From the IMG/VR virus record IMGVR_UViG_640753024_000008: 27,000 nt of DNA. One strand, written 5' to 3'. Below, in pieces: positions 3,309-22,244 of the stretch (the first letter of the stretch is position 1; each line of letters opens with the position of its first letter). Source of the stretch: a virus (Duplodnaviria > Heunggongvirae > Uroviricota > Caudoviricetes). The position numbers were made by a program, and so were the translations under genes. Under the pieces are notes generated by a model that searched no databases, had not been told where the DNA came from, and worked only from the letters and a program-made list of their open reading frames with translations.

Positions 3309-3884
3309 CTACGGCAGTGCTGGCCATTCAATATCCTGTGCAGTTGACGTATCAACACGGTTCAGCAATACCCGATACTTTTTCCATGCTTCCAGCAACG
3401 AGATTTCTTCCTCCGTTGCAATTTCCAGATCTGCAGCATCCTGAAGCGGCGCAATATGCTCACTGGCTACCTGCATCAGGCTGTTTTTTGTTTCTTCCGC
3501 CTCCCGGATCCGGAACAGTTTTTCTGCTTCCGTATCCTTCACCCAGGCTGTGCCGTTCCACTTCTGATATTCCCCTCCCGGCGATAACCAGGTAACATTT
3601 TCCGGTAACGGACCGAGTTCAGAAATAAATAACGCGTCGCCGGAAGCCACGTCATAAACCGTTTTACCCCGATGATCTTCAACGAGATGCCACGATGCCT
3701 CATCACTGTTGAAAACAGCCACGAAGCCTGCCGGAATATCTGGCGGTGCAATATCGATACTGTTTGCTGGCAGACCTGTATGAGGCGGAATATATGCGTC
3801 ACCTTCACCAATAAATTCATTAGTTCCGGCCAGCAGATTATAAATTTTTATGGTCCGTGGTTGTTCACTCATTCTGAATGCCAT
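3309..3884 (-). CDS. tfaQ: tail fibre assembly protein
   Basis: 191-aa ORF immediately downstream of, and translationally coupled (TAATG) to, the side-tail-fibre C-terminal ORF; typical Tfa size and position. Confidence 0.8.
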
Positions 3885-4600
3885 TATGCAAGCCTCACAA
3901 TATAGTTAAATGCGATGTTTTTGACGGTGTTTTCCGCGTTACCAGCAGCGTTAACGGTGATGGTATGTCCATGTGAACCAATCGCAACGGAGTGCGTATG
4001 AGCACCAATACCGACAGTATGTGCGTGTGCACCTGCGCTTGCAGCAGTACCCGATACAGAGTGCGTATGAGCGCCTGCAGAAGAAGTGTTAACACTGTAT
4101 TTAGAATAATCCGACGACGACATAATGTTGACCGAGGGCCAACCAATTTTAAGGAACGAGCCATCCCTGAACGTCTTATCATGGACATTATTGTCGTTAC
4201 GACGTGGACTCATTCTTTTCTTTACCGCCGCACTGCTTCTAAACGTTCTGTCGAGGCGCTTTTTAGAATGCTCGCGGGCCTTATCTTCGGTCATCTGCAC
4301 AACGAGCATGTCCGAAGGATCGCAAACGATGGTATAGACAATCCATCCATCGATCAGACCAATGGTCTTCCCTGTTCGCGCAGGACCAACAAAAATCACC
4401 GCATCGTATTCACGCGATGCCAGGCAGTTCATGGGCTCAATGATGTAGGGTGTCAGTTCAGGATCCCATGGCACCGAGTTACCAGCCCCCTTGGGAACAC
4501 GCATGAATTTTTTAACAGCCTCCGAAATCGGCATGCGACGTGGTGGGGAAAATCCTGCCGATATGTCCCTTCCCAAATTTCGGGCTGATGAAAAACCCAT
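3884..4600 (-). pseudogene. chimeric ORF: terminase large subunit N-terminal fragment fused in frame to a side-tail-fibre C-terminus
   Basis: N-terminal 150 or so residues resemble the GpA-type terminase N-terminus ([15 protein letters not shown]..., P-loop-like GPARTGKT). The C-terminal 70 or so residues are a repetitive Gly/His/Thr-rich tail-fibre tip (SAGAHTHSV...GSHGHTITV). The head and tail genes that should lie between are absent. Confidence 0.6.
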
Positions 4601-4864: not shown

Positions 4865-4894
4865 GTAAGCGACTCGTCAGAACCGTATTGATAT

Positions 4895-6466
4895 TTACTG
4901 AGAGCTCAGATCAACTTTCCAGGGCAACAGATCGCGTACCCGGTTTGCCGGCCAGTCCTGGATATGTTCAATGACGTAACGCAGCCACTTTTCTGACTCC
5001 ACATTGTTCAGACGGCATGTGCCGATCAGCGAGTACAACACCGCCGCATGTTCACCACCGCTGTCGGAACCCGCGAACATCCAGTTTTTCCGGCCTACGG
5101 CCACTCCCCGTAAGGCGTTCTCTGCGATGTTGTTGTCGATTTCCACCCAGCCATTACTGCAGTACACGTTCAGTGCATCCCACTGTTTCAGCAGGTATGC
5201 GAACGCTTTTGCCGTATCTGAGTGACGCGACAGTGTTTTCATCTGTTGCTGTATCCAGTCATACAGTGACTGCATCAGTGGCGCGGCTCTGGCTTTTCTT
5301 GCCGCCAGACGCTGTTCTGCTGAACAGCCCCGGACCTCTGCCTCGATGGCATACAGTTCACCGATACGCTGCAGGGCTTCCGTGGTGATGTAGGTGGGCG
5401 CTCTTGCATGCACATCGTGGATTTTTCTCCGGACATGAGCCATACACGCGGCTTCCGTTATTCTGCCGGATTCGTATAACGCCCGGTAACCACCGTAAGC
5501 ATCGGCCTGAAGCACACCGCTGTAACCGGCCAGGTGATTTTGTGGATGGATACCTTTCCGGTCCGGACTGTACGCGAACCAGACCGCCGGGGGCATCTGT
5601 GAACCGGCGTTACGGTCATCACGGACGTAGACCCACAGCCGGGCTGTCCGGGTTTTACCGCTGCCCGGCTCCTGGACCGGGACGGGGATATCATCAGCAT
5701 GGACTTTACCGGGCATCAGCACATACTGGCGCAGGACGTCATACAGCGGCTCCAGCAGTTCAGCAACAGCACCTGTCCAGCGCCCCAGTGTGGCACGGCT
5801 CAGCTCCACTCCCTGACGACGGTATATTTCTGACTGGCGGTATAACGGCAGATGGTCTGCATATTTCCCGGTGACAACATGGGCCAGAAGCCCCGCTCCG
5901 GCATAACTGCGTGCAATGGGTTTTGAAGGTACTGGTGCCTGCACGATATGGTCGCACCGGCAACAGGCCTGTTTCGGACGTTGTGTTTCGATAACCTTAA
6001 AGGCGCTGCTGATAAGCTCCAGTTGCTCTGACACATCACATCCCAGAGAACTGAGTTCACCACCACAGGCAGGACAGCATTCCTCTTCCGGCCGGATAAC
6101 CCGGGTTTCACGGGGAAGTGAGGCCGGTAACGGTTTACGGGCTGAAGACTGGCGCAGGGCGGATGGCAGTACCGGGTCATATTGCTCACCCAGCGTTTCC
6201 GCCATTTCTTCCTGAAGTGCGCTGATTCGCTCCTGTGCTTCCTGTATCTGCCGTTCGGTTTTTGCACGAAGTTTTTCTGAGCTTTTACCGAACTGCATAC
6301 GTTGCAGTTTCGCAACCAGCGCCTTCAGCCGGTTGATTTCGGAAGCATAAGCCGCCACCCGCTGTGAGAGCAGGCGGTTGTATTCAGCCATCTGGCGTAT
6401 GGTGTCCTGTTGCGTCTGCAACAGTGCCCGCAGGCGGGCGTTCTCATGAGCAAGTGAGGTGTCCAT
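4895..6466 (-). CDS. IS66-family transposase TnpC
   Basis: 523 aa with an N-terminal coiled-coil/leucine-zipper region, a Cys-rich zinc-ribbon (CPACG...CRCDH) and the conserved IS66 TnpC core. Confidence 0.9.
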
Positions 6467-6485
6467 ATCCTCACTTTACAACGGG

Positions 6486-6833
6486 TTATATGCGGATTCC
6501 AGCGCGTTCCGTTCGTTTCGGGTGCTTCCAGTTGATACCTTCAAGAAGCATGGATAACTGAGCCGGAGTAAGGTGCACCTTGCCGTCACGGGTGACTGGC
6601 CAGACGAAGCGGCCCCGCTCCAGGCGTTTGGTGAAGAGGCACAGTCCGTCACTGTCAGCCCACAACACTTTTATCTGGTCACCCCGGCGTCCGCGGAAGA
6701 TGAACAGGTGTCCGGAGAACGGGTCATCCTTCAGGACGTTCTGAACTTTTGATGCCAGGCCGTTAAAGCCATTTCGCATATCGGTGATACCTGCAACCAG
6801 CCAGATACGCGAACCTGCAGGGAGAGATATCAT
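6486..6833 (-). CDS. IS66 accessory protein TnpB (orfB)
   Basis: 115 aa, [20 protein letters not shown]... motif typical of IS66 orfB; overlaps orfA by 1 nt. Confidence 0.9.
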   Translation of the reverse strand: MISLPAGSRIWLVAGITDMRNGFNGLASKVQNVLKDDPFSGHLFIFRGRRGDQIKVLWADSDGLCLFTKRLERGRFVWPVTRDGKVHLTPAQLSMLLEGINWKHPKRTERAGIRI

Positions 6834-7297
6834 CAGTGGCTGCTCCCTTTTATTTCGCGGATAAGTGTCTGTAATAACGCCGGCGTCAGTTTACCTTTAA
6901 GCCTGAGAGTTCCGGCCGGCAGAACCAGCTCACAACACAGACTGTCGGACGGTGTATTTATCTGCTCTGGTTCCTGTGCGGGGGCCGGGATTTTATTATC
7001 CGGCTCCGGCGTTAACGTCACGGGAAGCAGTGCCGGCATATTTTTTCCGGAAGGCAGCAGGCCACCTTTCCGGTATTGATGGCGCCAGTTGAAGAGCAGG
7101 TTATCGTTGATTCCGTTTTCCCGGGCGATCTGCGCCACACAGGCTCCGGGCTGCAGTGACTGCTCCACTAAGGCGATTTTAAACTCATAAGGGAAGTTGG
7201 GCCGCCGGGGACGTTTTTTTACCACGGGGGCTTCGGATATAACGGTGCTTTCAGGACGTACGACTGGTATCGTGGAAAATTGGTAAGCGTGCAGCAA
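6833..7297 (-). CDS. IS66 orfA (true start unresolved)
   Basis: Homologous to copy-2 orfA (PEFK...GINDNLLFNWR). The called start is a TTG that lies inside the terminal repeat of the neighbouring element, so the real start is further downstream. Confidence 0.6.
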   Translation of the reverse strand: MLHAYQFSTIPVVRPESTVISEAPVVKKRPRRPNFPYEFKIALVEQSLQPGACVAQIARENGINDNLLFNWRHQYRKGGLLPSGKNMPALLPVTLTPEPDNKIPAPAQEPEQINTPSDSLCCELVLPAGTLRLKGKLTPALLQTLIREIKGSSH

Positions 7298-7319
7298 GAA
7301 CCGTATTGACGGGGATGTG

Positions 7320-8858
7320 TTATTCAGTCGGCAGTGCTACGCGCCAGGGGAGCAGTTCGCCGACCCGGTTTATCGGCCAGTCGGCTATGACGTCAAGGAC
7401 ATAGCGGAGGTAGCTTTCTGGCTCCACTCCGTTCAGTTTGCACGTCCCGATCAGGCTGTACAGCAGCGCTCCCCGCTCTCCTCCATGATCCGAACCGAAG
7501 AACAGGTAGTTTTTGCGGCCCAGACTGACCATCCGCAACGCATTTTCAGCGATGTTATTGTCCGCCTCAGCCCAGCCATCATCTGCATAGTACGTCAGCG
7601 CCGGCCACTGGTTCAGGGCGTATGCGAACGCTTTCGCCAGTTCTGAGTGTCGCGACAGGGTTTTCATCTTTTCACGCAACCAGCTTTCCAGGGATTTCAA
7701 CAGCGGTTTCGTTTTTCGCTGACGTTCAGCAAGCCGCTGCTCTGCCGGCATTCCCCTTATATCCGCCTCTATGGCGTACAACTGACCGATCTGCTCCAGG
7801 GCTTCTTCCGTCAGTGCTGACGGGATGCGGACGTGCACATCGTGGATCTTTCGGCGGGCATGAGCCCAGCAGGCAGCTTCCGTTATCCCACCATTGCGAT
7901 ACAGCTCGTTGAACCCGGCGTACGCATCCGCTTGCAGCACACCGCTGAAGCAGGCAAGATGAGTCTGCGGATGGATGCCTTTTCTGTCCGGGCTGTAAGC
8001 GAACCACACTGCAGGTGCCAACGCTGACCCGGCATTGCGGTCATCACGAACATACGCCCACAACCGCCCGGTCTTCGTCTTCTTATTACCCGGCAGCAGT
8101 ACCTGGACCGGGGTATCATCGGCATGGAGTTTGCCGTCAGTCATGACATAGCCATGAAGCGCCTCTTCCAGCGGAGACAGCAGCCGGCAGCATGCATCCA
8201 CCCAGCCCGACAGCAGTGAACGGCTCAGCTCCACACCTTGCCGGCCGTATATTTCTGACTGGCGATACAGCGGGGTGTGCTCTGCATACTTCGAGGTCAG
8301 CACGCGGGCCAGCAGCCCCGGTCCGGCGATACCCCGCTCGATGGGCCGCGAAGGTGCAGGTGCCTGCACGATGGCATCGCACTGAGTACAGGCATGTTTT
8401 TCCCGTACCGTCCGGATAACCCGGAAGGCACTACGCATCAACTCCAGCTGTTCGGCGGTATCCTCGCCCAGATAGCTCAGTGAACCGCCGCAGTTCGGGC
8501 AGCACGGCGCCGCAGGCAACAGTCGCTTTTCGTCACGGGGTAGTGATTCAGGGAACGGCTTACGGGTGCGGGTCTGACGCAACGGACGCTGTACAGCCGG
8601 GTCATACACCCTACCAGTCAGCGTATCGCTCTCTTTCTGAAGCCGGTTCAGATCGGCTTCCATTTGTGCGATACGGCGGGAGACTTTTTCGGAACGACTG
8701 CCGAAGTTCATCCGGCGGAGTTTATCCAGCTGCGCCTGCAGATGGTCTATTTCGCGCTCCCAGTTGCTCAGCTTTTCCTGCAGGGCGTGGATCAGCGCTT
8801 CCTGTTCGGCCAGGCGCTGTTTCAGCAGGAAGATGTCGTCAGAAGAGATGTCGTTCAT
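7320..8858 (-). CDS. IS66-family transposase TnpC
   Basis: 512 aa, same architecture as copy 1 but clearly divergent in sequence. Confidence 0.9.
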
Positions 8859-8907
8859 AAGCCCGTATTTTACCGGGCTTATTCTGTGACAACCAGGATA
8901 AAGAGAT

Positions 8908-9255
8908 TTACAGCATGGTCAGGGAGGTCAGCAACCGCTTGGGCTGTCGCCAGTCGATACCTTCCAGCAGCATCGCCAGCTGCGCCTGCGTAAGGAACAC
9001 TTTGCCATCACGGGCTGACGGCCAGGCGAAGCGCCCACGCTCCAGCCGTTTGGTCAGGAGGCACAGTCCGTCACCGGTGGACCACAGCAGTTTAACCTGA
9101 CTGCCGCTGCGGCCCCGGAAAATGAAAACATGGCCGGACATGGGATCGTCTTTCAGCGCCGTTTGTACTTTCGCAGCCAGGCCGTTGAAGCCATTTCTCA
9201 TATCGGTGATACCGGCAACCAGCCAAATTTTGGTCCCGGAAGGTAACGGGATCAT
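8908..9255 (-). CDS. IS66 accessory protein TnpB (orfB)
   Basis: 115 aa, [20 protein letters not shown]... Confidence 0.9.
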
Positions 9256-9653
9256 CGCTTCAGTTCCTGTATCAGCAGAGTCAGGAGCTTTTCGCTGACA
9301 TTGCCATTGAAGCGGAGCGTCCCGTGCCGGAACGTTACCTCACAGCTGATACTGAGGGTTTCCGGGTCCTCTGCGAGCGATTCTGGCTGTTCGGCAGCTG
9401 CATCGAGAGTCACAGGAAGTAGCTGGGGGCTCTCTGAAGAAGGTAATAGCAGCTTTCCCTCGCGCCATTGTTGTCGCCATTTGAACAACAGATTGGCGTT
9501 AATGCCATTTTCAAGAGCAAGTTTTGAGATGGATATCCCGGGTTCACAGGAGGCAGCAACGAGCTGCTGTTTAAATTCGGGAGGATAATTAGGGCAGCCT
9601 TTTCGCCTGCCGGGAGTCACATTTTTCTGCATATCTGACACTTTGGTTCCCAC
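9252..9653 (-). CDS. IS66 orfA
   Basis: 133 aa, overlaps orfB by 4 nt; helix-turn-helix-like GINANLLFKWR motif. Confidence 0.8.
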   Translation of the reverse strand: MGTKVSDMQKNVTPGRRKGCPNYPPEFKQQLVAASCEPGISISKLALENGINANLLFKWRQQWREGKLLLPSSESPQLLPVTLDAAAEQPESLAEDPETLSISCEVTFRHGTLRFNGNVSEKLLTLLIQELKR

Positions 9654-9679
9654 TACTTATTTGGTGGACACCACTTTGT

Positions 9680-9922
9680 CTAATTTGTCAGATTCTGACC
9701 AGACGGTTCAGGCTGTACGCTTACCTTACGCCTGTCTTCTTTAATCTTGAAATAAAGATTTGTCAGATACGTCAGCAGGCCAAAAACCAGGCTACCCAGC
9801 ACACCGATTGCAGCCCACTGTGACGGAGTTACTTTATCGAGTAACTGCAATGCCCAGAAACCAGCATTACCCGCCGATGTGCCATAGGCAACACCTGTTG
9901 TTAACTTATCCATTGATTTCAT
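9680..9922 (-). CDS. essQ: phage-21-type class II holin with dual-start motif; native C-terminus replaced by IS66-derived codons
   Basis: [31 protein letters not shown]...[16 protein letters not shown] matches the S21 holin family (recalled). GGTGAGGAT ribosome-binding site before the first Met. The last native codon, Lys, ends exactly at the IS66 copy-2 boundary at 9724/9725. Confidence 0.75.
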
Positions 9923-10394: not shown

Positions 10395-10675
10395 GAGATT
10401 GTGGTGCTTTTTGTGGGAGTCATCCACTTACGCACTTTGTTTTGCCATGCCAGCAGTTAGCTTCTGCTGTAAAACTATTCATGCAGCAAACCTGCACTTC
10501 ACCACAATGGTTAGCATACTTTTCCTGATTAAGATTTTGCCAAATATGCTGGCCATTGTTTCATGTATTGGACCTCCTTACTTTTTATTAAAGAGATCCA
10601 ATATTCACTACTCTGTCCGTATCTCTACTCAGGCATCAGCCTTCTTCGTTATCGTATACAGACGAGCGATGAATT

Positions 10676-10891
10676 TTAATCAGTAATGATGACATTTACT
10701 GCTGCAGGACCTTTAGCACCACTCTCTATAGAGAAGGTAACCTTTTGACCTTCAAATAAGGTTCGATAATTATCATTCTGAATCGCAGAAAAATGCACAA
10801 ACACATCTTTACTACCATCAACAGGAGAAATAAAGCCGAAACCTTTATCAGCGTTAAACCATTTTACTAAACCAGTCATTTTATTTGACAT
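10676..10891 (-). CDS. cspB: cold-shock protein (CspA family)
   Basis: 71 aa with [20 protein letters not shown]-1 motif and [11 protein letters not shown]-2 motif; position matches Qin cspB. Confidence 0.9.
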
Positions 10892-11201
10892 TCTACATTC
10901 CTTAACTTGAGCCTTTCGGCATAAATGGTTTGCATAACAGAAACGACTTCGTACTTAATTGGAGAGACTCAAAGAAGGAATAAGTGAATAACACCTGAAA
11001 TGAGAACTGCTTTAGTAAACTACTTCGTATATCGTCTGTTCTTCAAACCGACGCAGTCATTAACTCATAGTTGAACATATGAAGCAATGTTTATTTTAGA
11101 CATCCAGCCACCTTCAACCCTATCAACAAAGTAGTTTTCTCCAGGAACGTGTGTATGGTGCACCAGGTTATCAGTATTAAGGAGTTTTTCTGTCCCCTAA
11201 A

Positions 11202-14196: not shown

Positions 14197-14352
14197 TTAC
14201 TCCTCAGGTTCGTAAGCTGTGAAGACAGCGACCTCCGTCTGGCCGGTTCGGATTCGTACCTCGCAGAGGTCTTTCCTCGTTACCAGTGCCGTCACTATGA
14301 CGGTTAAACAGATGACGATCAGGGCGATTAACATCGCCTTTTGCTGCTTCAT
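14197..14352 (-). CDS. hokD: Hok-family membrane toxin (51 aa)
   Basis: MKQQKAMLIALIVICLTVIVTALVTRKDLCEVRIRTGQTEVAVFTAYEPEE. The ORF track extends this in frame by 19 codons (14197..14409). A 9-bp perfect hairpin lies in the 3' UTR at about 14168..14189. Confidence 0.85.
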   Translation of the reverse strand: MKQQKAMLIALIVICLTVIVTALVTRKDLCEVRIRTGQTEVAVFTAYEPEE

Positions 14353-15000
14353 AGCCTGCTTCTCCTTGCCTTCCGGCACGTAAGAGGCTAACCTACATGT
14401 GTCTAGCATGAAATTGGCCTCAGATTAATGTTAAGCGTCTTGCAGGACGCGTAATGTTAACTGGGGCTTTTCTCTATCTGCCTTTGGTGTTCATGCCCGA
14501 GGCAGATAGCCTCAAGCACCCGCAGCCATTCTACTTAACTACCTTTACCTCGCCAATATGAAATCAGTCAGAAAGGCGATCCATAAGAACAATAGCAAGA
14601 CAATAAATCGCCATTACAGCCGTAATAGCCAGCGCACATTTGAGAACCAGCACCACAACCTCCTGTATTGGACGTACACCAGTCCTGATAAATATGAGGC
14701 TGTCTCGTCCGTGATTCAATACAACTATTGGGTATGGTTTCTCTGATTTTTCTGTGGAAATGGAGCTCAACCACTAGTCACCACCAGCACTTCTTTTAAT
14801 ACGCAAAGTCCGACGCAAGCCAACAGGTTCAATTTCATATATATGAATTTTAAGCAGTATTCACCTACACGATTATTAGCAGTTTCCTGAATATATGATG
14901 GAGTGTCTTGACGATTTTAGACCAGAAACGCCCTCCACGTATTTCTGAGCGTACGCAACATATGTTATGGCAAATGCGAGCATATGGTAGAGTCAAATAA

Positions 15001-15028
15001 GTAAGAGCCACCCGCAGGTGGCTCTTAC
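15001..15028 (-). terminator. hairpin terminator directly after the 591-aa gene
   Basis: GTAAGAGCCACC-cgca-GGTGGCTCTTAC, a 12-bp stem starting 2 nt after the stop codon, followed on the minus strand by TTATTTGA. Confidence 0.55.
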
Positions 15029-15030
15029 TT

Positions 15031-16806
15031 TTACTCTTGCAATTCGATGATCTGCTCTTTACCTAGTAGATGATTAATAATATTTAATACTTTTTCTCTG
15101 TTCTGGAAGAATCTTGCTATATAACTATTGGGGAAGACTTCCTGTATGTGATTATAAGTATCAGAAGCCAGCTCTATACATTCCTCCAGTGAAACGTTTC
15201 GGCTATAAGAGAAGATGTGATTCTCCACAGAGGAAACTTCTATTTTATTCATGAGTATGGATATTAAAACATAATTTCCATGAATCATTATTTGATGAAT
15301 CTGCTTCTGATTTTCCATATCTACTGATAGTAGTTTAACTATACTTTCTTGCAATATATCATTTGCTAATCTATAAGCATTTACTTTATTTATTATATCC
15401 AAACCGGTAGGACCATTTTCAGCTGGGAATACTTTTTCATAAAGACCTCCCCAGCTTTCAAAAAAACGTCCTCTATTTAGTTTTAAGGAAGATATCAATG
15501 TTTCATCTTTAGAGGCACACACTAATGCGTTTAAAGCATCATCAATATCAATGGTATTACCACCTGTCTGGCTGGAGTCTTCTTGCCTGAGTAGTTTGTA
15601 GCTATATCCGCCAATAAAGTTTATTTCTCTTTGTATTCTTTGTTGCTCGGGCCTCTGTGATGAGAAATCTCTTCCAGTAACCCTGTTTTGTGTATTGTTG
15701 AATTTAGTGACAGAGGTTAAAAAATCTTCTTTTGCTGCACTGATAAATCTAATGCTCACCTTGATTAGATCTTTTTTTTCTTCGGGTAAAGAGTTGAACA
15801 CTTCACCAATAGTGCTTACAGTTTGAGCTCCATTTATTATACTCAGACTTTTAAAACTAAATAGCCCGTACTTCCTGCTTGTACTTAAGTTGATCATGCT
15901 TTCTTCTACATCACTATATACAGCAGTTATCCCATTGTTATAGTACCAAAAATTCTCCGGCTTTTCACTTAATGTTTTCTTTATCCCAGAGTTTATGGAT
16001 GAATTACCGAGGACACTTCTTATATTTTTCTCGAACAGAGAGTACTTGTACTTTTCCCACCAGTCGTATAGGATCCTTGCGGATATTGTTCCGTATATTG
16101 CTTTATAAGGTTCTGCTATCTCTCCATAACTTTCAAGGTGAACATTGCTAACATTTATAGATTTTGATCGATCATTAGAAAGACCATCCATTATCACTTG
16201 TATACCTGCCGGCTCGAATAGCACTGAATACTCATCTCTATTCTCTATATCTTTAAATAATAGAGACCGATTCTGAAGCTTTTCCCAAAACTCTATGTCT
16301 GATTTTACTTCTTCGCTTGGCTCATGAACCCCTGTATATATAAATACACATATACATTTATATGTAAATCCTGAGATTGCTTCAATTATGGAGTCTTTGT
16401 TTCTTAAAAACCTTTCGTTAAATGTTGTAAAGTCGCTGGCTATTACTTTTGCGCATGCGTCTTTGAATCTTCCGAATTCTCTTGTGGTTATAGAACCGTC
16501 GCCATTTTTAATATATTTTGACTGAACTATTACTATCTTTCTCGAATTTTTATTAACATAAACTGCATCTATCCCGCCATCATCTTTTCCATCGCAGACA
16601 GCATTAGCAGCTAACTCAGGGTCTGGTTCATCACCATACAAGCTGATTGCATGCGCAGCTACACAGCGTGTAATTAGAGTTTCTTTCCTATGCTCTCCTA
16701 CGGAATTAATATCTTTCATATCAATAAAAGTTCCGTATATAGACTCTAATTGATTAGTTATGCGTACTAAACCTGCTGTTTGCGTGGCTTTGTCGTACTG
16801 GGACAT
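15031..16806 (-). CDS. AT-rich cargo gene: 591-aa protein with N-terminal PD-(D/E)xK-like (Mrr-type) nuclease motif; candidate anti-phage defence or abortive-infection protein
   Basis: Uninterrupted 1776-nt ORF with AGGAG about 8 nt upstream of the ATG and a TATAAT-like element about 40 nt upstream. Residues D72..D75-D76-G-G-I-D80 and I-V-I-V-Q95-S-K97 fit a restriction-endonuclease-like core. No Walker A and no YxDD motif. G+C is about one third (39 of 120 in the sample I counted), against roughly half in the flanks. Confidence 0.75.
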   Translation of the reverse strand: MSQYDKATQTAGLVRITNQLESIYGTFIDMKDINSVGEHRKETLITRCVAAHAISLYGDEPDPELAANAVCDGKDDGGIDAVYVNKNSRKIVIVQSKYIKNGDGSITTREFGRFKDACAKVIASDFTTFNERFLRNKDSIIEAISGFTYKCICVFIYTGVHEPSEEVKSDIEFWEKLQNRSLLFKDIENRDEYSVLFEPAGIQVIMDGLSNDRSKSINVSNVHLESYGEIAEPYKAIYGTISARILYDWWEKYKYSLFEKNIRSVLGNSSINSGIKKTLSEKPENFWYYNNGITAVYSDVEESMINLSTSRKYGLFSFKSLSIINGAQTVSTIGEVFNSLPEEKKDLIKVSIRFISAAKEDFLTSVTKFNNTQNRVTGRDFSSQRPEQQRIQREINFIGGYSYKLLRQEDSSQTGGNTIDIDDALNALVCASKDETLISSLKLNRGRFFESWGGLYEKVFPAENGPTGLDIINKVNAYRLANDILQESIVKLLSVDMENQKQIHQIMIHGNYVLISILMNKIEVSSVENHIFSYSRNVSLEECIELASDTYNHIQEVFPNSYIARFFQNREKVLNIINHLLGKEQIIELQE

Positions 16807-17432
16807 CCTTTGCGCTCCTGAACATGTAACAAAATATGATTCGCATTATAAGATTTTTTAATGTTTAGCCGAAGAGTTTTTTGCATGAGTTATGACATAA
16901 GTTTAGTTCGTAGTTCTGCGATATAGTTTTCTCCTGAAAACAAAAAACATCTGGGGCATGAGGTGAGCTCCGAAAGTTGGACATCTCAACGATTATGTCA
17001 AGAGCGTCTACTGGGACGTGGTCTGTGTAAACGGTCACTCCTAGTACAAAGCAGACAACAATGCCAGTTTTAATCTAATCCTATACAACAGAAATGTCAT
17101 TTCACATTTGAACTAATGCACTTTAATATCGTTACTTCAAAATGCTGAACATTTCCCTGATAAAACGCCAGTATGCGTTGCATCACTTCGCTCTTCCGGC
17201 ACTCGCGACAGATTATGTTTAGACGACTGTCGTAGCGACGTATTTCTCCGTCAGGTAATGACCAGATAAGGTCCGGATCAACCACAGCAGGTTTCTTCAC
17301 CTTTGCCCTCGAGAGTTTTTTGCGGGCGTTTTGCCAGTCCTTACGCGCCTGTTCAGACGGGAATAACTGATCTTACCCAGCAATAGTGGACACGCGGCTA
17401 AGTGAGTAAACTCTCAGTCAGAGGTGACTCAC

Positions 17433-17732
17433 ATGACAAAAACAGTATCAACCAGTAAAAAACCCCGTAAACAGCATTCGCCTGAATTTCGCAGTGAAGC
17501 CCTGAAGCTTGCTGAACGCATCGGTGTTACTGCCGCAGCCCGTGAACTCAGCCTGTATGAATCACAACTCTACAACTGGCGCAGTAAACAGCAAAATCAG
17601 CAGACGTCTTCTGAACGTGAACTGGAGATGTCTACCGAGATTGCACGTCTCAAACGCCAGCTGGCAGAACGGGATGAAGAGCTGGCTATCCTCCAAAAGG
17701 CCGCGACATACTTCGCGAAGCGCCTGAAATGA
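17433..17732 (+). CDS. insE: IS3 OrfA (helix-turn-helix protein)
   Basis: [32 protein letters not shown]... recalled IS3 InsE sequence; the ORF track begins 3 codons earlier at a GTG. Confidence 0.9.
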
Positions 17733-18505
17733 AGTACGTCTTTATTGAAAAACATCAGGCTGAGTTCAGCATCAAAGCAATGTGCCGCGTGCTCCGGGTG
17801 GCCCGCAGCGGCTGGTATACGTGGTGTCAGCGGCGGACAAGGATAAGCACGCGTCAGCAGTTCCGCCAACACTGCGACAGCGTTGTCCTCGCGGCTTTTA
17901 CCCGGTCAAAACAGCGTTACGGTGCCCCACGCCTGACGGATGAACTGCGTGATCAGGGTTACCCCTTTAACGTAAAAACCGTGGCGGCAAGCCTGCGCCG
18001 TCAGGGACTGAGGGCAAAGGCCTCCCGGAAGTTCAGCCCGGTCAGCTACCGCGCACACGGCCTGCCTGTGTCAGAAAATCTGTTGGAGCAGGATTTTTAC
18101 GCCAGTGGCCCGAACCAGAAGTGGGCAGGAGACATCACGTACTTACGTACAGATGAAGGCTGGCTGTATCTGGCAGTGGTCATTGACCTGTGGTCACGTG
18201 CCGTTATTGGCTGGTCAATGTCGCCACGCATGACGGCGCAACTGGCCTGCGATGCCCTGCAGATGGCGCTGTGGCGGCGTAAGAGGCCCCGGAACGTTAT
18301 CGTTCACACGGACCGTGGAGGCCAGTACTGTTCAGCAGATTATCAGGCGCAACTGAAGCGGCATAATCTGCGTGGAAGTATGAGCGCAAAAGGTTGCTGC
18401 TACGATAATGCCTGCGTGGAAAGCTTCTTTCATTCGCTGAAAGTGGAATGTATCCATGGAGAACACTTTATCAGCCGGGAAATAATGCGGGCAACGGTGT
18501 TTTAA
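17729..18505 (+). CDS. insF: IS3 OrfB (DDE transposase), C-terminally truncated by a frameshift
   Basis: 258 aa ending ...REIMRATVF. The expected last 30 or so residues ([30 protein letters not shown]) are in the +1 frame after a run of four T at about 18500..18503. Confidence 0.85.
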
Positions 18506-18855
18506 TTATATCGAATGTGATTACAATCGGTGGCGGCGGCACAGTTGGTGTGGCGGCCTCAGTCCGGAACAATTTGAAAACCAGAACCTCGCTTAGGCCT
18601 GTGTCCATATTACGTGGGTAGGATCATAACCCGTAACCAGAGCTGTATACATCGCCACTGGCAACCAGCTCTCTGGCCAGAACGCTCATCAGATATCTTG
18701 TTGCCCCAGTTTTAGCTTCCAGTTGTCGTAACGTCTCGCGCCCACTCTGGCGTACGAGTTCCACCACCTGCCCTTTAATTTTTTCCCGCTCTTCTTGTGT
18801 AAAAACTTTTGCCACAAGTCCTCCTGAACATTACTTTATGCCCTAAAATCAACAC

Positions 18856-19821
18856 TTATCCCCTGAAACCAGGCGGAATTTCGGTATCCGGTTCAGAAAT
18901 ATGATTCACACAACGCTTTATTGGCGAACGCCCCAGGCGAATAACCAGCTCATCCCATTTTTCGCGAAGCTTTGACGGACTCATGATGTTTTTGACCCAG
19001 AATGGATCTCGCTGTACCCGACCAAACATTTCGCAAATTTGTCTGTGGCTTCTGCCATCCAGCATCCGCATTGTGCGCACGTCATTGGCCCAGGCAGTCC
19101 AGTTAGGCTCTTTTGGTCGCATGATCTCGCCATCATCACTGGCGGCCTGTTCGTAGAGACCCACGATCCGCCCCCAGATCCACTGCGCACACGCCAAATC
19201 CTCCCTGCTACCCCACTGCCGTTTTTTCGCACTAAACACAACTGCGTCAGGGTGCCGGATTAAAAAATCCTGTTCAGCCGTCTGCTGGTCCGGTTGCAAA
19301 GCTTCCGGACGAAAAGTGTTTTTATTCTCTGTAGTAATCTCTGTTGTATTCTCTGTAGGATCATCGGGCCATTTTGACCCGATGACATTGGGTCGTTTTG
19401 AACCAATGGAGCGTTTCATTTTGACCTCTTCCATCATGTCATTTTGACCTGATGGAGCGACGCATTTTGAACTGATGGATTCGCTCAATTTGCCACCATC
19501 TAAAAGATCGCTCCCGTAGTTGATCGTGTAGAAATTGGTCATGTCGCGCTTTGATTTATTGAGCTTTTCGCAACGCAAAAGCCCCAGCGTTTTCAGACTT
19601 GCAAACGCGCGCTTTAACGTTGACTCTGACCAGAACGGGAACTGCGCCAGCCATTGTTCCGTTGTGTTGTAAATCCAGCGAGCACCATCACATTCCATGC
19701 CGGAATTGGTATCTCTCAACCAGTAATGCAGTTGCTGCAACACAATGGCTTCGTTTAAGCCAATCTTCATCGCAAGCTGTGTGTTTATAACCAGTGGGCG
19801 TTCAGCAAAAAGAAGGCTCAT
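18856..19821 (-). CDS. putative phage replication-initiation / replisome-organiser-like protein
   Basis: ORF track 18856..19875; an internal Met at 19821 reduces the overlap with the upstream gene. N-terminal winged-helix-like region (IVLQQLHYWLR...TLKRAFASLKTLGLL). Sits in the replication-module position downstream of the cro-like dicC. Weak assignment. Confidence 0.4.
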   Translation of the reverse strand: MSLLFAERPLVINTQLAMKIGLNEAIVLQQLHYWLRDTNSGMECDGARWIYNTTEQWLAQFPFWSESTLKRAFASLKTLGLLRCEKLNKSKRDMTNFYTINYGSDLLDGGKLSESISSKCVAPSGQNDMMEEVKMKRSIGSKRPNVIGSKWPDDPTENTTEITTENKNTFRPEALQPDQQTAEQDFLIRHPDAVVFSAKKRQWGSREDLACAQWIWGRIVGLYEQAASDDGEIMRPKEPNWTAWANDVRTMRMLDGRSHRQICEMFGRVQRDPFWVKNIMSPSKLREKWDELVIRLGRSPIKRCVNHISEPDTEIPPGFRG

Positions 19822-20323: not shown

Positions 20324-20537
20324 TGTTCAACCGCCCCGCCCGCTTCGTCTTACGATATTCGTCATAAACTTTGGGATCATACTGAAGCTCCCCGCCAGAT
20401 GCCTCCTGTAGACGCATCGCGCGACCTTCGGGAACTAAATCCCCTTTCCAGCTATAAAGCGAAGCCAAACGAATACCTGCTGCTTGTGCAAGTTTTGTTT
20501 TTGAACCGAAATACAAAAGAGCGTCAGTTTTAAGCAT
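20307..20537 (-). CDS. dicC: Cro-like regulator DicC
   Basis: 76 aa (MLKTDALLYFGSKTKLAQAAGIRLASLYSWKGD...), transcribed divergently from dicA. Confidence 0.85.
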   Translation of the reverse strand: MLKTDALLYFGSKTKLAQAAGIRLASLYSWKGDLVPEGRAMRLQEASGGELQYDPKVYDEYRKTKRAGRLNNENHS

Positions 20538-20552
20538 TTAAAACACCTTAGC

Positions 20553-20570
20553 TGTTAGTCATGGCTAACA
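20553..20570. promoter_or_regulatory. operator-like near-palindrome TGTTAGTCATGGCTAACA in the dicC-dicA intergenic region
   Basis: Seen in the sequence; a second TTAGCATTAGCTAA near-palindrome lies just downstream at about 20596..20612. Confidence 0.5.
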
Positions 20571-20620
20571 AAATAGATGTTAACAAAAACATAGTCAATA
20601 CGATTTAGCATTAGCTAACT

Positions 20621-21028
20621 ATGGATACAAAAAATTTAACCATCGGCGAACGCATTAGGTATCGTCGGAAAAACCTCAAACACACCCAAAGGTCTCTTGC
20701 TAAAGCCCTGAAAATCTCCCATGTGTCTGTATCACAATGGGAACGGGATGATAGTGAACCTACAGGGAAGAACCTTTTTGCCCTCAGCAAAGTATTGCAA
20801 TGCTCACCAACATGGATTCTATTTGGCGATGAAGACAAGCAACCAACACCACCTGTTGAGAAGCCGGTTGCCTTAGCCCCCAAAGAACTAGAGCTCCTTG
20901 AGCTGTTTAATGCACTGCCAGAATCAGAACAGGATACCCAGCTCGCCGAAATGCGAGCTCGAGTAAAAAATTTCAATAAACTCTTTGAAGAATTACTAAA
21001 AGCCCGTCAGCGGACAAATAAAAGATAA
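20621..21028 (+). CDS. dicA: repressor DicA (helix-turn-helix, cI-like)
   Basis: 135 aa, MDTKNLTIGERIRYRRKNLKHTQRSLAKALKISHVSVSQWER... with helix-turn-helix. Confidence 0.9.
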   Translation: MDTKNLTIGERIRYRRKNLKHTQRSLAKALKISHVSVSQWERDDSEPTGKNLFALSKVLQCSPTWILFGDEDKQPTPPVEKPVALAPKELELLELFNALPESEQDTQLAEMRARVKNFNKLFEELLKARQRTNKR

Positions 21029-21098
21029 CATCATCAATGAGTTATCTTTTATTATATCAATTGTGTTAGCCATAACATACAAAATCACTTGACCAATA

Positions 21099-21115
21099 TG
21101 TTAGTCATGGCTAAT
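21099..21115. promoter_or_regulatory. second copy of the operator-like motif (TGTTAGTCATGGCTAAT), upstream of ydfA
   Basis: 16 of 17 nt identical to the site at 20553..20570; a related half-site TGTTAGCCATAACA lies at about 21063..21076. Confidence 0.45.
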
Positions 21116-21194
21116 CTAGTTTACATCAACACACCGCACGGTGTTCTCAGCAAACAGTTCCGCCACCCCGGCGTTAAGGGGAAATGAGGTCAGC

Positions 21195-21350
21195 ATGGAT
21201 ACTATCGATCTTGGCAACAGCGAATCTCTGGTATGTGGCGTGTTCCCCAACCAGGACGGCACGTTCACCGCGATGACGTATACCAAAAGCAAAACGTTTA
21301 AAACCGAAAATGGTGCCCGTCGCTGGCTGGAAAGAAACTCAGGTGAGTGA
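21195..21350 (+). CDS. ydfA: small prophage protein YdfA (51 aa)
   Basis: Internal ATG of ORF 21141..21350 with GAGG ribosome-binding site; MDTIDLGNSESLVCGVFPNQDGTFTAMTYTKSKTFKTENGARRWLERNSGE. Confidence 0.8.
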   Translation: MDTIDLGNSESLVCGVFPNQDGTFTAMTYTKSKTFKTENGARRWLERNSGE

Positions 21351-21351
21351 T

Positions 21352-21927
21352 ATGGATTTCGACACAATCATGGAAAAGGCTTACGAAGAATACTTCGAAG
21401 GCCTTGCCGAAGGCGAAGAAGCTCTCAGCTTCAGTGAGTTTAAACAGGCACTCAGAATAAGAATGTGCTCTCACAATGACGCGGAGCACAAATATGAGAA
21501 GCAAAATCAGACCGCAGAAAATTTTGTTCTGGAACCCGGAGAAACGCTTTTCAAAATTCCCGTTACGTGCCCCATTTGCGGTTTTACATCAGAAGAACTT
21601 GACGACTCCTGTAACAATCAGGAAACAACCAAGTATGTCGAAGATGATACCGAGTGCGCACGAAGAACGATTATATCCACGAGTCCAAACTCCAGGACCA
21701 ATAAATCTCACCTTGAGAGGGTGATTAATCCACTCCCCCAAACCAATAAAAAAGATGCCGGAGGACAAAAAACCCAATGGAACAACGGGATATCTGTCAA
21801 AAAAAGACGTTCCATTAAAGACAAACAACGCAGCGCCAACAACTGTAAGCGCTTTATACCAGTAATCAATTTTCATGTTCTTAAGCGGATTTATTGGTGG
21901 TTGCGACATTGCTTAATGAATCCTTAA
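21352..21927 (+). CDS. continuous ORF across the ydfB/ydfC region (191 aa from MDFDT)
   Basis: Starts 2 nt after the ydfA stop. The N-terminal part is acidic with a CPICG motif; the C-terminal 90 or so residues are low-complexity and overlapped by an antisense membrane-like ORF. The coding extent is uncertain. Confidence 0.45.
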   Translation: MDFDTIMEKAYEEYFEGLAEGEEALSFSEFKQALRIRMCSHNDAEHKYEKQNQTAENFVLEPGETLFKIPVTCPICGFTSEELDDSCNNQETTKYVEDDTECARRTIISTSPNSRTNKSHLERVINPLPQTNKKDAGGQKTQWNNGISVKKRRSIKDKQRSANNCKRFIPVINFHVLKRIYWWLRHCLMNP

Positions 21928-22186
21928 AACTGTGGTGATTTTAAGGATACCACCTCGCCTGACGTGGTTAAAAGCAGGCACACAACACGAAAGCGCACGG
22001 CGAAGTTCGTCTCACTGTACGGTGTCGTTAAATTTAATTCGACCGTGCGCTTCCGGTTGTGGCAACCCGCGAAATGGCGCGGCGGTAAGTATGGCGGGGT
22101 TATTCCTTCCCCGTTGAGGACACCGAGTTGTCAGGTTGACCATACGCTTAAGTGACAACCCCGCTGCAACGCCCTCTGTTATCAAT

Positions 22187-22244
22187 TTTCTGGTGACGTT
22201 TGGCGGTATCAGTTTTACTCCGTGACTGCTCTGCCGCCGTTTTT
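22187..22244 (+). ncRNA. dicF: DicF small regulatory RNA
   Basis: TTTCTGGTGACGTTTGGCGGTATCAGTTTTACTCCGTGACTGCTCTGCCGCC followed by TTTTT, matching the recalled DicF sequence almost exactly, in the expected place just before dicB. Confidence 0.85.

What the first reader, a model, noticed from the sequence alone, without database searches (positions are those of the whole stretch)
17097..18815. IS3 insertion splits a 152-codon phage gene immediately upstream of the candidate defence gene
Seen in sequence: IS3 (17368..18626) is flanked by TAAC on both sides, and removing the element plus one repeat copy restores a continuous frame joining ORF 18624..18815 to ORF 17097..17300. A clean 4-bp target-site duplication means a simple, probably recent transposition. 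The split gene ends 290 bp upstream of the 591-aa gene on the same strand, so the insertion may have separated it from an operon partner or changed its transcription (inference).
Basis: partly seen in the sequence, partly recalled or inferred. Interest (0 to 1): 0.45.

Follow-up and report, generated by a model that had tools for sequence, protein, structure and literature searches.

The report
IS3 insertion in prophage ren-like gene
A common E. coli jumping gene (IS3) has landed in a small Ren-like phage gene of a decayed Qin-type prophage, next to a stand-alone abortive-infection gene; it is a real, strain-specific but ordinary event.

Summary
IS3 lies at 17368..18626, flanked by TAAC on both sides. 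Removing it plus one TAAC restores a 151-aa gene that matches uninterrupted alleles in 35 complete E. coli genomes; the GE3 allele differs by 1 nt in 456.

The split gene is a DUF977 / "LygF" / Ren-like protein, in the same PHROG as lambda Ren. It is the last gene of the replication module of a Qin-type cryptic prophage. The window matches ETEC strain E24377A, the only record found with this insertion.

The IS3 copy carries an extra T that truncates OrfB to 258 aa. This variant is shared with other ETEC strains and plasmids.

The "operon partner" idea is not supported:
- About 4,100 E. coli genomes and several sequenced phages have the DUF977 gene followed by unrelated genes.
- The 591-aa AIPR gene is a low-GC cassette with its own ribosome-binding site and a strong terminator.
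- AIPR orthologues in Cronobacter, Pectobacterium and Serratia stand alone, with no DUF977 nearby.

The likely consequences are loss of the Ren-like protein and reduced read-through from the early lytic promoter. Both are inferred, not tested. Interest is low.

The parts
17368..18626 (+). IS3 element, 1259 bp, with the transposase genes on the + strand, opposite to the phage early operon
   Evidence: Matches K-12 IS3A over its full length apart from 3 substitutions and 1 inserted T. Ends are TGATC...GATCA, with terminal inverted repeats matching at 28 of 39 positions. Pfam finds HTH_Tnp_1 in orfA and rve in orfB.
17364..17367 (.). Left copy of the target-site duplication, TAAC
   Evidence: The empty site in GE3 has a single TAAC.
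18627..18630 (.). Right copy of the target-site duplication, TAAC
   Evidence: New IS3 insertions in the long-term evolution experiment (LTEE) lines gave duplications of 4, 3 and 4 bp (PMC11708052 Table S1).
17433..17732 (+). IS3 orfA (99 aa)
   Evidence: Pfam HTH_Tnp_1. Same length as K-12 insE1 and as the gene called in E24377A.
17729..18505 (+). IS3 orfB, truncated to 258 aa (K-12 InsF is 288 aa)
   Evidence: ORF list. Pfam rve and rve_2, the latter cut at profile position 28 of 56. Alignment to K-12 IS3A.
18500..18503 (+). TTTT run where canonical IS3 has TTT; this frameshift creates the premature orfB stop
   Evidence: The exact 4-T version is the best match in only 35 of 4,685 IS3-bearing records, many of them O6:H16 strain records. 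In M9682-C1 the copy is annotated 'frameshifted'. 1259-bp copies occur on plasmids including ETEC 1392/75.
18624..18815 (-). N-terminal fragment of the DUF977 / Ren-like gene (63 codons, a complete winged helix); its stop codon is supplied by the IS3 end
   Evidence: In an AlphaFold2 model of a 93%-identical homologue, residues 7-63 form the winged helix with pLDDT above 90.
17097..17367 (-). C-terminal fragment of the DUF977 / Ren-like gene (codons 63/64-151 plus stop). It carries the conserved motif shared with lambda Ren.
   Evidence: Reconstruction. Pfam DUF977 at 102.9 bits. PHROG 142 at 8.5e-46. Alignment with lambda Ren.
16807..17096 (-). 290-bp AT-rich spacer. Homology with DUF977 prophages that lack AIPR ends at about 17038. 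A TATAAT lies at 16850-16845 and an AGGAG ribosome-binding site lies before the AIPR ATG.
   Evidence: Sequence. Break in homology (hits H37-H40). No stable hairpin in the spacer. The promoter is only a consensus match with a weak -35, and the scan did not flag it.
15031..16806 (-). 591-aa AIPR-family gene (candidate abortive-infection defence), intact
   Evidence: Pfam AIPR at 115.7 bits. PADLOC AbiU at 5e-24. PHROG 1841 at 5e-103. GC 31-39% against roughly 43-60% in the sequence either side.
14999..15030 (-). Hairpin with a 14-bp stem followed by a T-rich tail, immediately after the AIPR stop; a likely intrinsic terminator
   Evidence: Folding energy -30.3 kcal/mol, z = -6.9. The Cronobacter orthologue has a hairpin plus T run at the same place with a different stem sequence.
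18856..19821 (-). Replication initiator (O-like) gene directly upstream of the split gene in the same operon
   Evidence: PHROG 391 at 2.7e-90. Annotated as a 321-aa gene in GE3 and E24377A.

Best explanation
What it is. This is a single, strain-specific transposition of IS3 into codon 63/64 of a 151-aa gene of the DUF977 / 'LygF' / Ren-like family. That gene is the last one of the early-right operon (cro, cII-like YdaT, O-like initiator, Ren-like gene) of a Qin-type cryptic prophage lying between ydfJ and rspB. The window matches ETEC strain E24377A.

Shown:
- The element, its 4-bp TAAC duplication and the restored reading frame.
- The uninterrupted alleles in other strains.
- The family of the split gene.
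- The uniqueness of the junction.

Inferred consequences:
1. Only the 63-aa winged-helix N-terminus can still be made. The conserved C-terminal Ren motif is lost, so the gene is knocked out.
2. IS3 lies antisense to the operon and leaves 1.26 kb of untranslated RNA. Transcription from the early lytic promoter is therefore expected to be cut off by polarity before it reaches the AIPR gene, hokD and the Q antiterminator.
3. The AIPR gene is an independent low-GC cassette with its own ribosome-binding site, a likely promoter and a strong terminator. Its expression in the repressed prophage should not change.

The prophage is already dead for phage production: its morphogenesis genes are deleted, its lysozyme and Rz genes are missing, and two IS66-family elements sit in the late region. 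The insertion is therefore most likely a neutral step in prophage decay.
For: Element and duplication:
- IS3 identity and boundaries.
- Frame restored only by removing the IS plus 4 bp.
- Empty site and 1-nt difference from GE3.
- 35 genomes with the uninterrupted gene, all matches stopping at 17367.
- 4-bp duplications are usual for IS3 (4, 3 and 4 bp in LTEE lines).

Uniqueness:
- The 63-aa product is found on one contig only, E24377A CP000800.1.
- Both junction 28-mers occur only in that locus among those fetched.

Family of the split gene:
- Pfam DUF977 at 1.9e-29.
- PHROG 142 'Ren-like exclusion protein' at 8.5e-46. Lambda Ren hits the same PHROG at 1.6e-41.
- Shared C-terminal motif with lambda Ren.
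- Same position after the replication genes as lambda ren.
- Winged helix at residues 7-63; also PMC2686095.

Independence of the AIPR gene:
- Counts of 38 genomes with the cassette against about 4,100 with a DUF977 homologue.
- Different downstream neighbours in phages and prophages.
- Stand-alone orthologues in Cronobacter, Pectobacterium and Serratia.
- Low GC. Terminator hairpin.

Decayed prophage.
Against: - No expression data exist, so polarity and the AIPR gene's own promoter are both inferences.
- The promoter evidence is weak. There is a perfect TATAAT but a poor -35, and the promoter scan found no more sites than in shuffled sequence.
- Significant DNA homology with the Cronobacter orthologue extends only 28 bp upstream of the ATG.
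- No terminator separates the split gene from the AIPR gene. In intact alleles the two can be co-transcribed during induction, so some effect on AIPR transcription cannot be excluded.
- Several independent IS hits in the same 2.5-kb module in other strains could mean selection rather than neutral decay.
Confidence: 0.85

Rival explanations
1. Functional coupling. The Ren-like DUF977 protein would be a regulator of, or a self-immunity factor for, the adjacent AIPR abortive-infection gene, much as lambda Ren lets lambda escape Rex exclusion. The insertion would then change how the defence behaves.
For: - The two genes lie on the same strand with no terminator between them.
- In E. coli complete genomes the AIPR cassette is found only in this Qin-type prophage, nearly always directly downstream of DUF977.
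- The family includes lambda Ren (PHROG 142).
- Lambda Ren interacted with Rex proteins in a two-hybrid assay (bioRxiv 10.1101/2021.04.19.439022).
- The protein has a DNA-binding winged helix.
Against: - The association is one-way. About 4,100 genomes and 24 sequenced phage records carry DUF977 homologues; the five phage and prophage loci inspected have other downstream genes.
- The E. coli AIPR cassettes are all at least 99% identical, which fits a single acquisition rather than a conserved pairing.
- Orthologues at 85%, 59% and 56% identity in three other genera have no DUF977 neighbour.
- PADLOC has no model that includes DUF977.
Confidence: 0.05
2. Selected insertion. Disruptions by insertion sequences in the DUF977-AIPR module would be favoured because they block lytic read-through from the early promoter into AIPR, hokD and Q, or because they silence a costly abortive-infection gene. 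The event would then be host domestication rather than neutral decay.
For: Among about 39 AIPR-bearing prophages there are at least four independent IS events in this 2.5-kb module:
- IS3 in DUF977 (this window).
- An IS66-family element in DUF977 in AMSCJX03.
- An IS3-family element in the 5' part of AIPR in SW070912.
- IS3 just upstream of AIPR, with a deletion, in C9, where AIPR is also split into two CDSs.

Four further genomes show two annotated features under the AIPR match, which may mean a split gene; I did not inspect them.
Against: - There is no baseline rate of IS insertion for comparable prophage DNA.
- The window's prophage holds two more IS elements elsewhere, so it looks like a general sink for IS elements.
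- The events hit different genes with opposite expected effects.
- Many of the 38 genomes are clonal replicates.
Confidence: 0.1
3. Artefact. The IS3 copy would have been misplaced by assembly of a multi-copy repeat, or the extra T in orfB would be a homopolymer sequencing error.
For: IS3 is multi-copy in E. coli (median 3 places per genome). The frameshift lies in a T run.
Against: - Both junctions are unique sequences with a matching 4-bp duplication, and they fit an empty site exactly.
- The index lists three samples with this contig.
- The same 4-T variant recurs in 35 independent records and on several plasmids.
Confidence: 0.02

Closest known systems
IS3 of E. coli K-12 (IS3 family, IS3 group; insE/insF)
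   Same: The same element. It differs from K-12 IS3A by 3 substitutions and 1 inserted base, and has the same TG...CA inverted-repeat ends and overlapping orfA and orfB. Its 4-bp target duplication falls within the 3-4 bp seen for new IS3 insertions.
   Different: It is 1259 bp rather than 1258 bp. The extra T at 18500-18503 truncates OrfB by 30 residues. This variant was found mainly in other ETEC strains and on plasmids.
Lambda Ren (gene ren, downstream of O and P in the PR operon)
   Same: Both proteins hit PHROG 142 over its whole length. Both are the last gene of the replication module transcribed from the early-right promoter. Both have an N-terminal winged-helix-like region and share the C-terminal motif N..(C/K)ECR.S..M.R.LA.Y.
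   Different: Lambda Ren is 96 aa and lacks the roughly 40-residue middle segment. It does not reach Pfam DUF977. Pairwise similarity is limited to 20 residues. No Rex-related phenotype is known for DUF977 proteins.
DUF977 / 'LygF' genes of Rac- and Qin-type prophages and phages (mEp460, Rac-SA53, Evi, HannyBb, Shigella phage 75/02 Stx)
   Same: 66-97% protein identity, and the same position after the replication genes.
   Different: Those copies are uninterrupted and are followed by other genes: a methyltransferase, a regulator plus an acetyltransferase, rac19/ead, or a RelE/ParE pair. The allele here has its own C-terminal tail, because the recombination break lies in the last codons.
Phage 'morons' and prophage-borne single-gene abortive-infection systems (AIPR / AbiU-like)
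   Same: The 591-aa gene has low GC, a strong terminator and a position between conserved phage modules. It matches Pfam AIPR, PADLOC AbiU and PHROG 1841.
   Different: Its promoter is not demonstrated. The AbiU match covers only profile positions 44-366 of 537. Defence activity is untested.

Membership tests
IS3 (IS3 family, IS3 group) | About 1258 bp with imperfect terminal inverted repeats ending 5'-TG...CA-3' | tested here: met
   1259 bp with TGATC...GATCA ends; 28 of the first 39 terminal bases match. Collinear with K-12 IS3A.
IS3 (IS3 family, IS3 group) | Two overlapping genes: orfA (HTH) and orfB (DDE / rve integrase-like) | tested here: met
   orfA 17433-17732 matches HTH_Tnp_1. orfB 17729-18505 matches HTH_21 and rve.
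IS3 (IS3 family, IS3 group) | Short target-site duplication of 3-4 bp | tested here: met
   TAAC on both sides, with a single TAAC at the empty site. New IS3 insertions in LTEE lines gave 4, 3 and 4 bp.
IS3 (IS3 family, IS3 group) | Full-length transposase reading frame (OrfB of 288 aa), as needed for an autonomous copy | tested here: not met
   The extra T at 18500-18503 gives a stop after 258 aa. This bears on autonomy, not on identity as IS3. The same variant sits at several sites and replicons, so it has moved, possibly with transposase supplied in trans.
Pfam DUF977 (PF06163) | Score above the curated gathering threshold over the whole profile | tested here: met
   102.9 bits against a cut-off of 22.1, covering profile positions 1-134 of 134, for the reconstructed protein.
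Ren-like exclusion protein (PHROG 142; prototype lambda Ren) | Sequence membership in the same family as lambda Ren | tested here: met
   Reconstructed protein 8.5e-46. Lambda Ren 1.6e-41 against the same PHROG. Direct BLASTP aligns only 20 C-terminal residues at 50% identity.
Ren-like exclusion protein (PHROG 142; prototype lambda Ren) | Located directly after the replication genes in the early-right operon | tested here: met
   Order cro, YdaT / cII-like, O-like, DUF977 here and in GE3. Lambda has O, P, ren.
Ren-like exclusion protein (PHROG 142; prototype lambda Ren) | Confers resistance to Rex-mediated exclusion (the phenotype that named ren; from my own knowledge of the lambda literature) | not testable with these tools
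   Needs phage genetics. The one paper I read says only that ren is transcribed from PR and is 'likely involved in DNA replication', and that Ren interacted with Rex proteins in a two-hybrid assay.
AIPR / AbiU-like abortive infection protein (neighbouring gene) | AIPR domain above the Pfam threshold | tested here: met
   115.7 bits against a cut-off of 25. PHROG 1841 at 4.8e-103 over the full length.
AIPR / AbiU-like abortive infection protein (neighbouring gene) | Full-length match to AbiU and a phage-resistance phenotype | tested here: inconclusive
   PADLOC AbiU at 5.1e-24 covers only profile positions 44-366 of 537. The phenotype cannot be tested here.
Moron (autonomous gene cassette in a prophage) | Own promoter and terminator, atypical base composition, and presence or absence between otherwise collinear phages | tested here: inconclusive
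   Terminator: met. Composition: met. Presence or absence polymorphism: met. Promoter: only a TATAAT with a weak -35, not flagged by the scan.

The most novel reading that the evidence does not exclude
The Ren-like DUF977 protein could be an early-expressed factor that modulates or neutralises the adjacent AIPR abortive-infection gene, acting as self-immunity for the phage that carries it. The repeated IS hits in this module across strains would then reflect selection on that interaction. This would give the long-enigmatic Ren family a concrete anti-abortive-infection role that can be tested with a natural knock-out (E24377A) and natural intact alleles (such as GE3).
Probability: 0.04. Interest if true: 0.55.

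Novelty: already known. Interest (0 to 1): 0.1.

Why it matters
It matters little on its own. It is one more IS3 insertion in a decaying cryptic prophage of a published ETEC genome, and it does not point to a new system.

It has some practical value:
- It flags E24377A as a natural knock-out of a Ren-like gene, sitting next to an intact and rare (38 of 5,426 genomes) single-gene AIPR cassette, with near-isogenic intact alleles available in other strains.
- It shows that the region between the Ren-like gene and hokD in Qin- and Rac-type prophages is a variable cargo slot. That is useful when looking for prophage-borne defence genes.

Tried and rejected
1. An outward promoter at an IS3 end that could drive the AIPR gene. 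No promoter-like site lies on the minus strand near the left end, and my reading of both ends found no usable -35/-10 pair. I dropped the idea.
2. A terminator between the split gene and the AIPR gene. None was found: the folds there are weaker than shuffled sequence.
3. The 57-aa ORF 16865..17038 in the spacer. It has no Pfam, PHROG or PADLOC hit and no CDS is annotated in the spacer of the genomes inspected. By my reading its GTG directly abuts the AGGAG. I rejected it as a gene.
4. Conservation of the AIPR promoter region between E. coli and Cronobacter. A MAFFT alignment suggested about 60-68% identity in the proximal 100 bp. Local BLAST supports homology only to 28 bp upstream of the ATG, so I do not use this as promoter evidence.
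5. A scan of representative genomes for AIPR relatives. It returned only eight distant loci at 25-41% identity. I could not screen them for DUF977 because their files never reached the script machine. I used protein homologues and their contigs instead.
6. Solved structures. No sequence hit for DUF977, and Foldseek gave only generic winged-helix matches at E of about 1e-2.
7. Literature. 'DUF977' gave one paper, which calls it a winged helix. The bacterial hits for 'LygF' were two Salmonella genome announcements, which I did not read. I found nothing on this insertion in E24377A.
Full report
**Observation**

The region 17368..18626 is a 1259-bp element with TGATC...GATCA ends and imperfect terminal inverted repeats, matching at 28 of the first 39 bases. 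It aligns end to end with IS3A of E. coli K-12, differing by three substitutions and one inserted T. It encodes orfA (17433-17732, HTH_Tnp_1) and orfB (17729-18505, HTH_21 plus rve) on the + strand.

TAAC flanks it on both sides, at 17364-17367 and 18627-18630. Removing the element plus four bases joins minus-strand ORF 18815..18631 to 17367..17097 in frame, giving 151 codons plus a stop. Removing it plus three bases does not.

The empty site exists in nature. In E. coli GE3 the sequence reads GGGAATAACCCGTAACC with one TAAC, and the reconstructed gene differs from the GE3 gene at 1 of 456 nt (A34T). Thirty-five of 5,426 complete E. coli genomes carry the uninterrupted gene together with the same downstream spacer.

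When I searched with the left junction, every match stopped exactly at 17367, so no genome in that collection has this insertion. The 290-bp distance to the 591-aa gene is correct.

A 4-bp duplication is normal for IS3. Three new IS3 insertions in the long-term evolution experiment (LTEE) lines gave 4, 3 and 4 bp (PMC11708052 Table S1). A 3-bp duplication plus one stray base at an IS end would look the same and cannot be formally excluded.

**Where it is**

The window is a complete Qin-type cryptic prophage running from ydfJ to the integrase next to rspB.
- It is collinear with the GE3 prophage and with many other E. coli Qin loci.
- Rfam finds the expected Qin landmarks: DicF, sok (the hokD locus), a cspA-type leader and IS009.
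- The exact 63-aa truncated product occurs on one contig only in the 153-billion-gene index, E. coli E24377A (ETEC) CP000800.1.
- Both junction 28-mers occur in that locus and in no other locus I fetched.

The insertion therefore appears specific to that strain. Together with the absence of further damage in either gene half, this supports a recent event.

The prophage is already defunct:
- A terminase N-terminus is fused to tail-fibre repeats.
- Two different IS66-family elements sit in tandem at about 4865-9700.
- The lysozyme and Rz genes present in GE3 are missing.

**What was split**

The reconstructed protein is a full-length Pfam DUF977 member (1.9e-29). In sequenced phages its homologues are annotated 'LygF' or 'Ren-like exclusion protein'.

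It matches PHROG 142 ('Ren-like exclusion protein') at 8.5e-46, and lambda Ren matches the same PHROG at 1.6e-41. Direct comparison with lambda Ren shows only a 20-residue C-terminal motif at 50% identity. A multiple alignment shows that Ren lines up with the N-terminal region and with this motif, and lacks about 40 residues in the middle. Lambda Ren itself does not reach any Pfam family.

The gene sits where ren sits in lambda, directly after the replication genes in the early-right operon.

An AlphaFold2 model of a 93%-identical homologue gives a confident winged helix at residues 7-63 plus a helix at 67-85, and a poorly defined C-terminal part. Foldseek finds only generic MarR/GntR-type winged helices, in line with an older profile analysis (PMC2686095).

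IS3 cuts after codon 63, at the end of the wing. A 63-aa winged-helix stub could still be made, but the conserved C-terminal motif is separated from it.

**The IS3 copy**

The extra T at 18500-18503 stops OrfB after 258 residues instead of 288.

It is not obviously a sequencing error:
- The exact variant is the best match in 35 of 4,685 IS3-bearing records, many of them O6:H16 strain records.
- It is annotated as frameshifted in strain M9682-C1.
- 1259-bp copies occur on several plasmids, including that of ETEC 1392/75.

Because the variant sits at several sites and on several replicons, it has moved since the frameshift arose. I cannot tell whether it moved by itself or with help from intact copies.

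**Relation to the 591-aa gene**

This gene is an AIPR-family protein (Pfam 115.7 bits; PADLOC AbiU 5e-24, partial; PHROG 1841 5e-103).

Several results argue against an operon partnership with the split gene.

1. The association is one-way.
   - About 4,100 genomes have a DUF977 homologue, but only 38 have the AIPR cassette.
   - All 38 cassettes are at least 99% identical and lie in this prophage type, which fits a single acquisition.
2. Homology with DUF977 prophages that lack AIPR breaks about 59 bp after the DUF977 stop (H37-H40). The last codons of DUF977 proteins vary between alleles, and some proteins are DUF977-Hok fusions. The stretch between this gene and hokD is therefore a variable slot.
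3. In phages Evi, HannyBb, Rac-SA53 and 75/02 Stx, and in strain 2012EL-2448, the slot holds unrelated genes.
4. AIPR orthologues in Cronobacter (85% identity), Pectobacterium (59%) and Serratia (56%) stand alone in unrelated surroundings, with no DUF977 nearby.
5. The gene is low in GC, 31-39% against roughly 43-60% in the sequence either side.
6. A very stable hairpin with a T-rich tail follows its stop codon directly (-30.3 kcal/mol, z = -6.9). The Cronobacter orthologue has an equivalent hairpin with a different stem sequence.

The evidence for its own promoter is weaker. A perfect TATAAT lies at 16850-16845 and an AGGAG before the ATG. The -35 is poor, the scan did not flag the site, and DNA homology to Cronobacter ends 28 bp upstream of the ATG.

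No terminator lies between the two genes. During induction of an intact prophage, read-through into the AIPR gene is therefore possible.

**Most likely mechanism and effect**

IS3 transposed into the Ren-like gene. Shown: the insertion itself, and the knock-out of the full-length protein.

Inferred:
- IS3 is antisense to the operon and leaves 1.26 kb without translation. Transcription from the early promoter should therefore largely end inside it, by Rho-dependent polarity according to general knowledge.
- That would lower any induced expression of AIPR, hokD, rem, ydfU and Q.
- In the repressed state the early promoter is off. A defence gene has to be expressed from its own signals, so the AIPR gene's normal expression should be unaffected.

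I found no outward promoter at either IS3 end.

**Alternatives**

1. A functional link between the Ren-like protein and the AIPR gene is attractive, because Ren is the classic counter to Rex exclusion. The distribution data above leave it little room (about 5%).
2. Selection for IS disruption of this module is possible. AMSCJX03 has an IS66-family element in the same gene. SW070912 has an IS3-family element in the AIPR gene. C9 has IS3 just upstream of AIPR with a deletion, and its AIPR gene is split. Without a baseline, and given how IS-rich this prophage is, neutral decay is simpler.
3. An assembly artefact is very unlikely.

**Verdict**

The operon-partner idea is not supported, and an effect on transcription remains untested. 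The element, the gene families and the genome are all known. This is an ordinary feature of low interest.

Noticed in passing
window 18500-18503 (inside IS3 orfB): The IS3 copy has TTTT where K-12 IS3 has TTT, which truncates OrfB to 258 aa. The same 1259-bp variant recurs in chromosomes and plasmids of other ETEC strains, so a 'frameshifted' IS3 lineage appears to have kept moving.
   Followed up: partly
L003 5291-8196 (AMSCJX03); L011 1632-4540 (SW070912); L012 3132-6514 (C9): There are independent IS events in the same DUF977-AIPR module in other strains. AMSCJX03 has an IS66-family element in DUF977. SW070912 has an IS3-family element in the 5' part of AIPR. C9 has IS3 upstream of AIPR, with DUF977 through to the exonuclease gene deleted and AIPR split in two.
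   Followed up: partly
window about 4865-9700: Two different IS66-family elements (each with tnpA, tnpB and tnpC; about 71-74% identical to each other over the longer repeat blocks) sit in tandem between a terminase / tail-fibre fusion remnant and the holin gene. The lysozyme and Rz genes present in GE3 are missing here.
   Followed up: partly
window 3884-4600 (- strand): One ORF joins a terminase large-subunit ATPase N-terminus to tail-fibre repeats. This is the scar of a large deletion of the morphogenesis genes, as in K-12 Qin.
   Followed up: no
window 17097-17140 (3' end of the split gene); proteins P0122, P0130, P0141, P0180: The C-terminal tails of DUF977 proteins diverge right after the conserved FYQGN. 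One cluster (P0130) is a DUF977-Hok fusion. This marks a recombination or deletion breakpoint at the edge of a variable cargo slot between the Ren-like gene and hokD.
   Followed up: partly
window 15031-16806; hits: The AIPR cassette is rare (38 of 5,426 complete E. coli genomes, all at least 99% identical). In C9 it is split into two CDSs and in SW070912 it is cut by an IS; four further genomes show two annotated features under the match, which I did not inspect. The nearest orthologue outside E. coli is 85% identical, in Cronobacter dublinensis next to an integrase remnant.
   Followed up: partly
window 3343-3541, 10629-11052, 14347-14521, 22188-22239: Rfam matches above the gathering score: IS009 sRNA, a cspA-type thermoregulator leader, sok antitoxin RNA of the hokD locus, and DicF.
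   Followed up: no
window 20436-21942: The immunity region and the sequence to its right (part of the repressor side, and a 205-aa ORF at 21310-21927 with no Pfam hit) do not align with the otherwise collinear GE3 prophage, apart from a 203-bp block at 21124-21326. This is a mosaic segment.
   Followed up: no
window 16865-17038 (- strand): A 57-aa ORF starts exactly where homology to AIPR-lacking prophages ends. It has no family hit and no annotated CDS in the related genomes inspected, and by my reading no usable ribosome-binding-site spacing. It is probably not a gene.
   Followed up: yes
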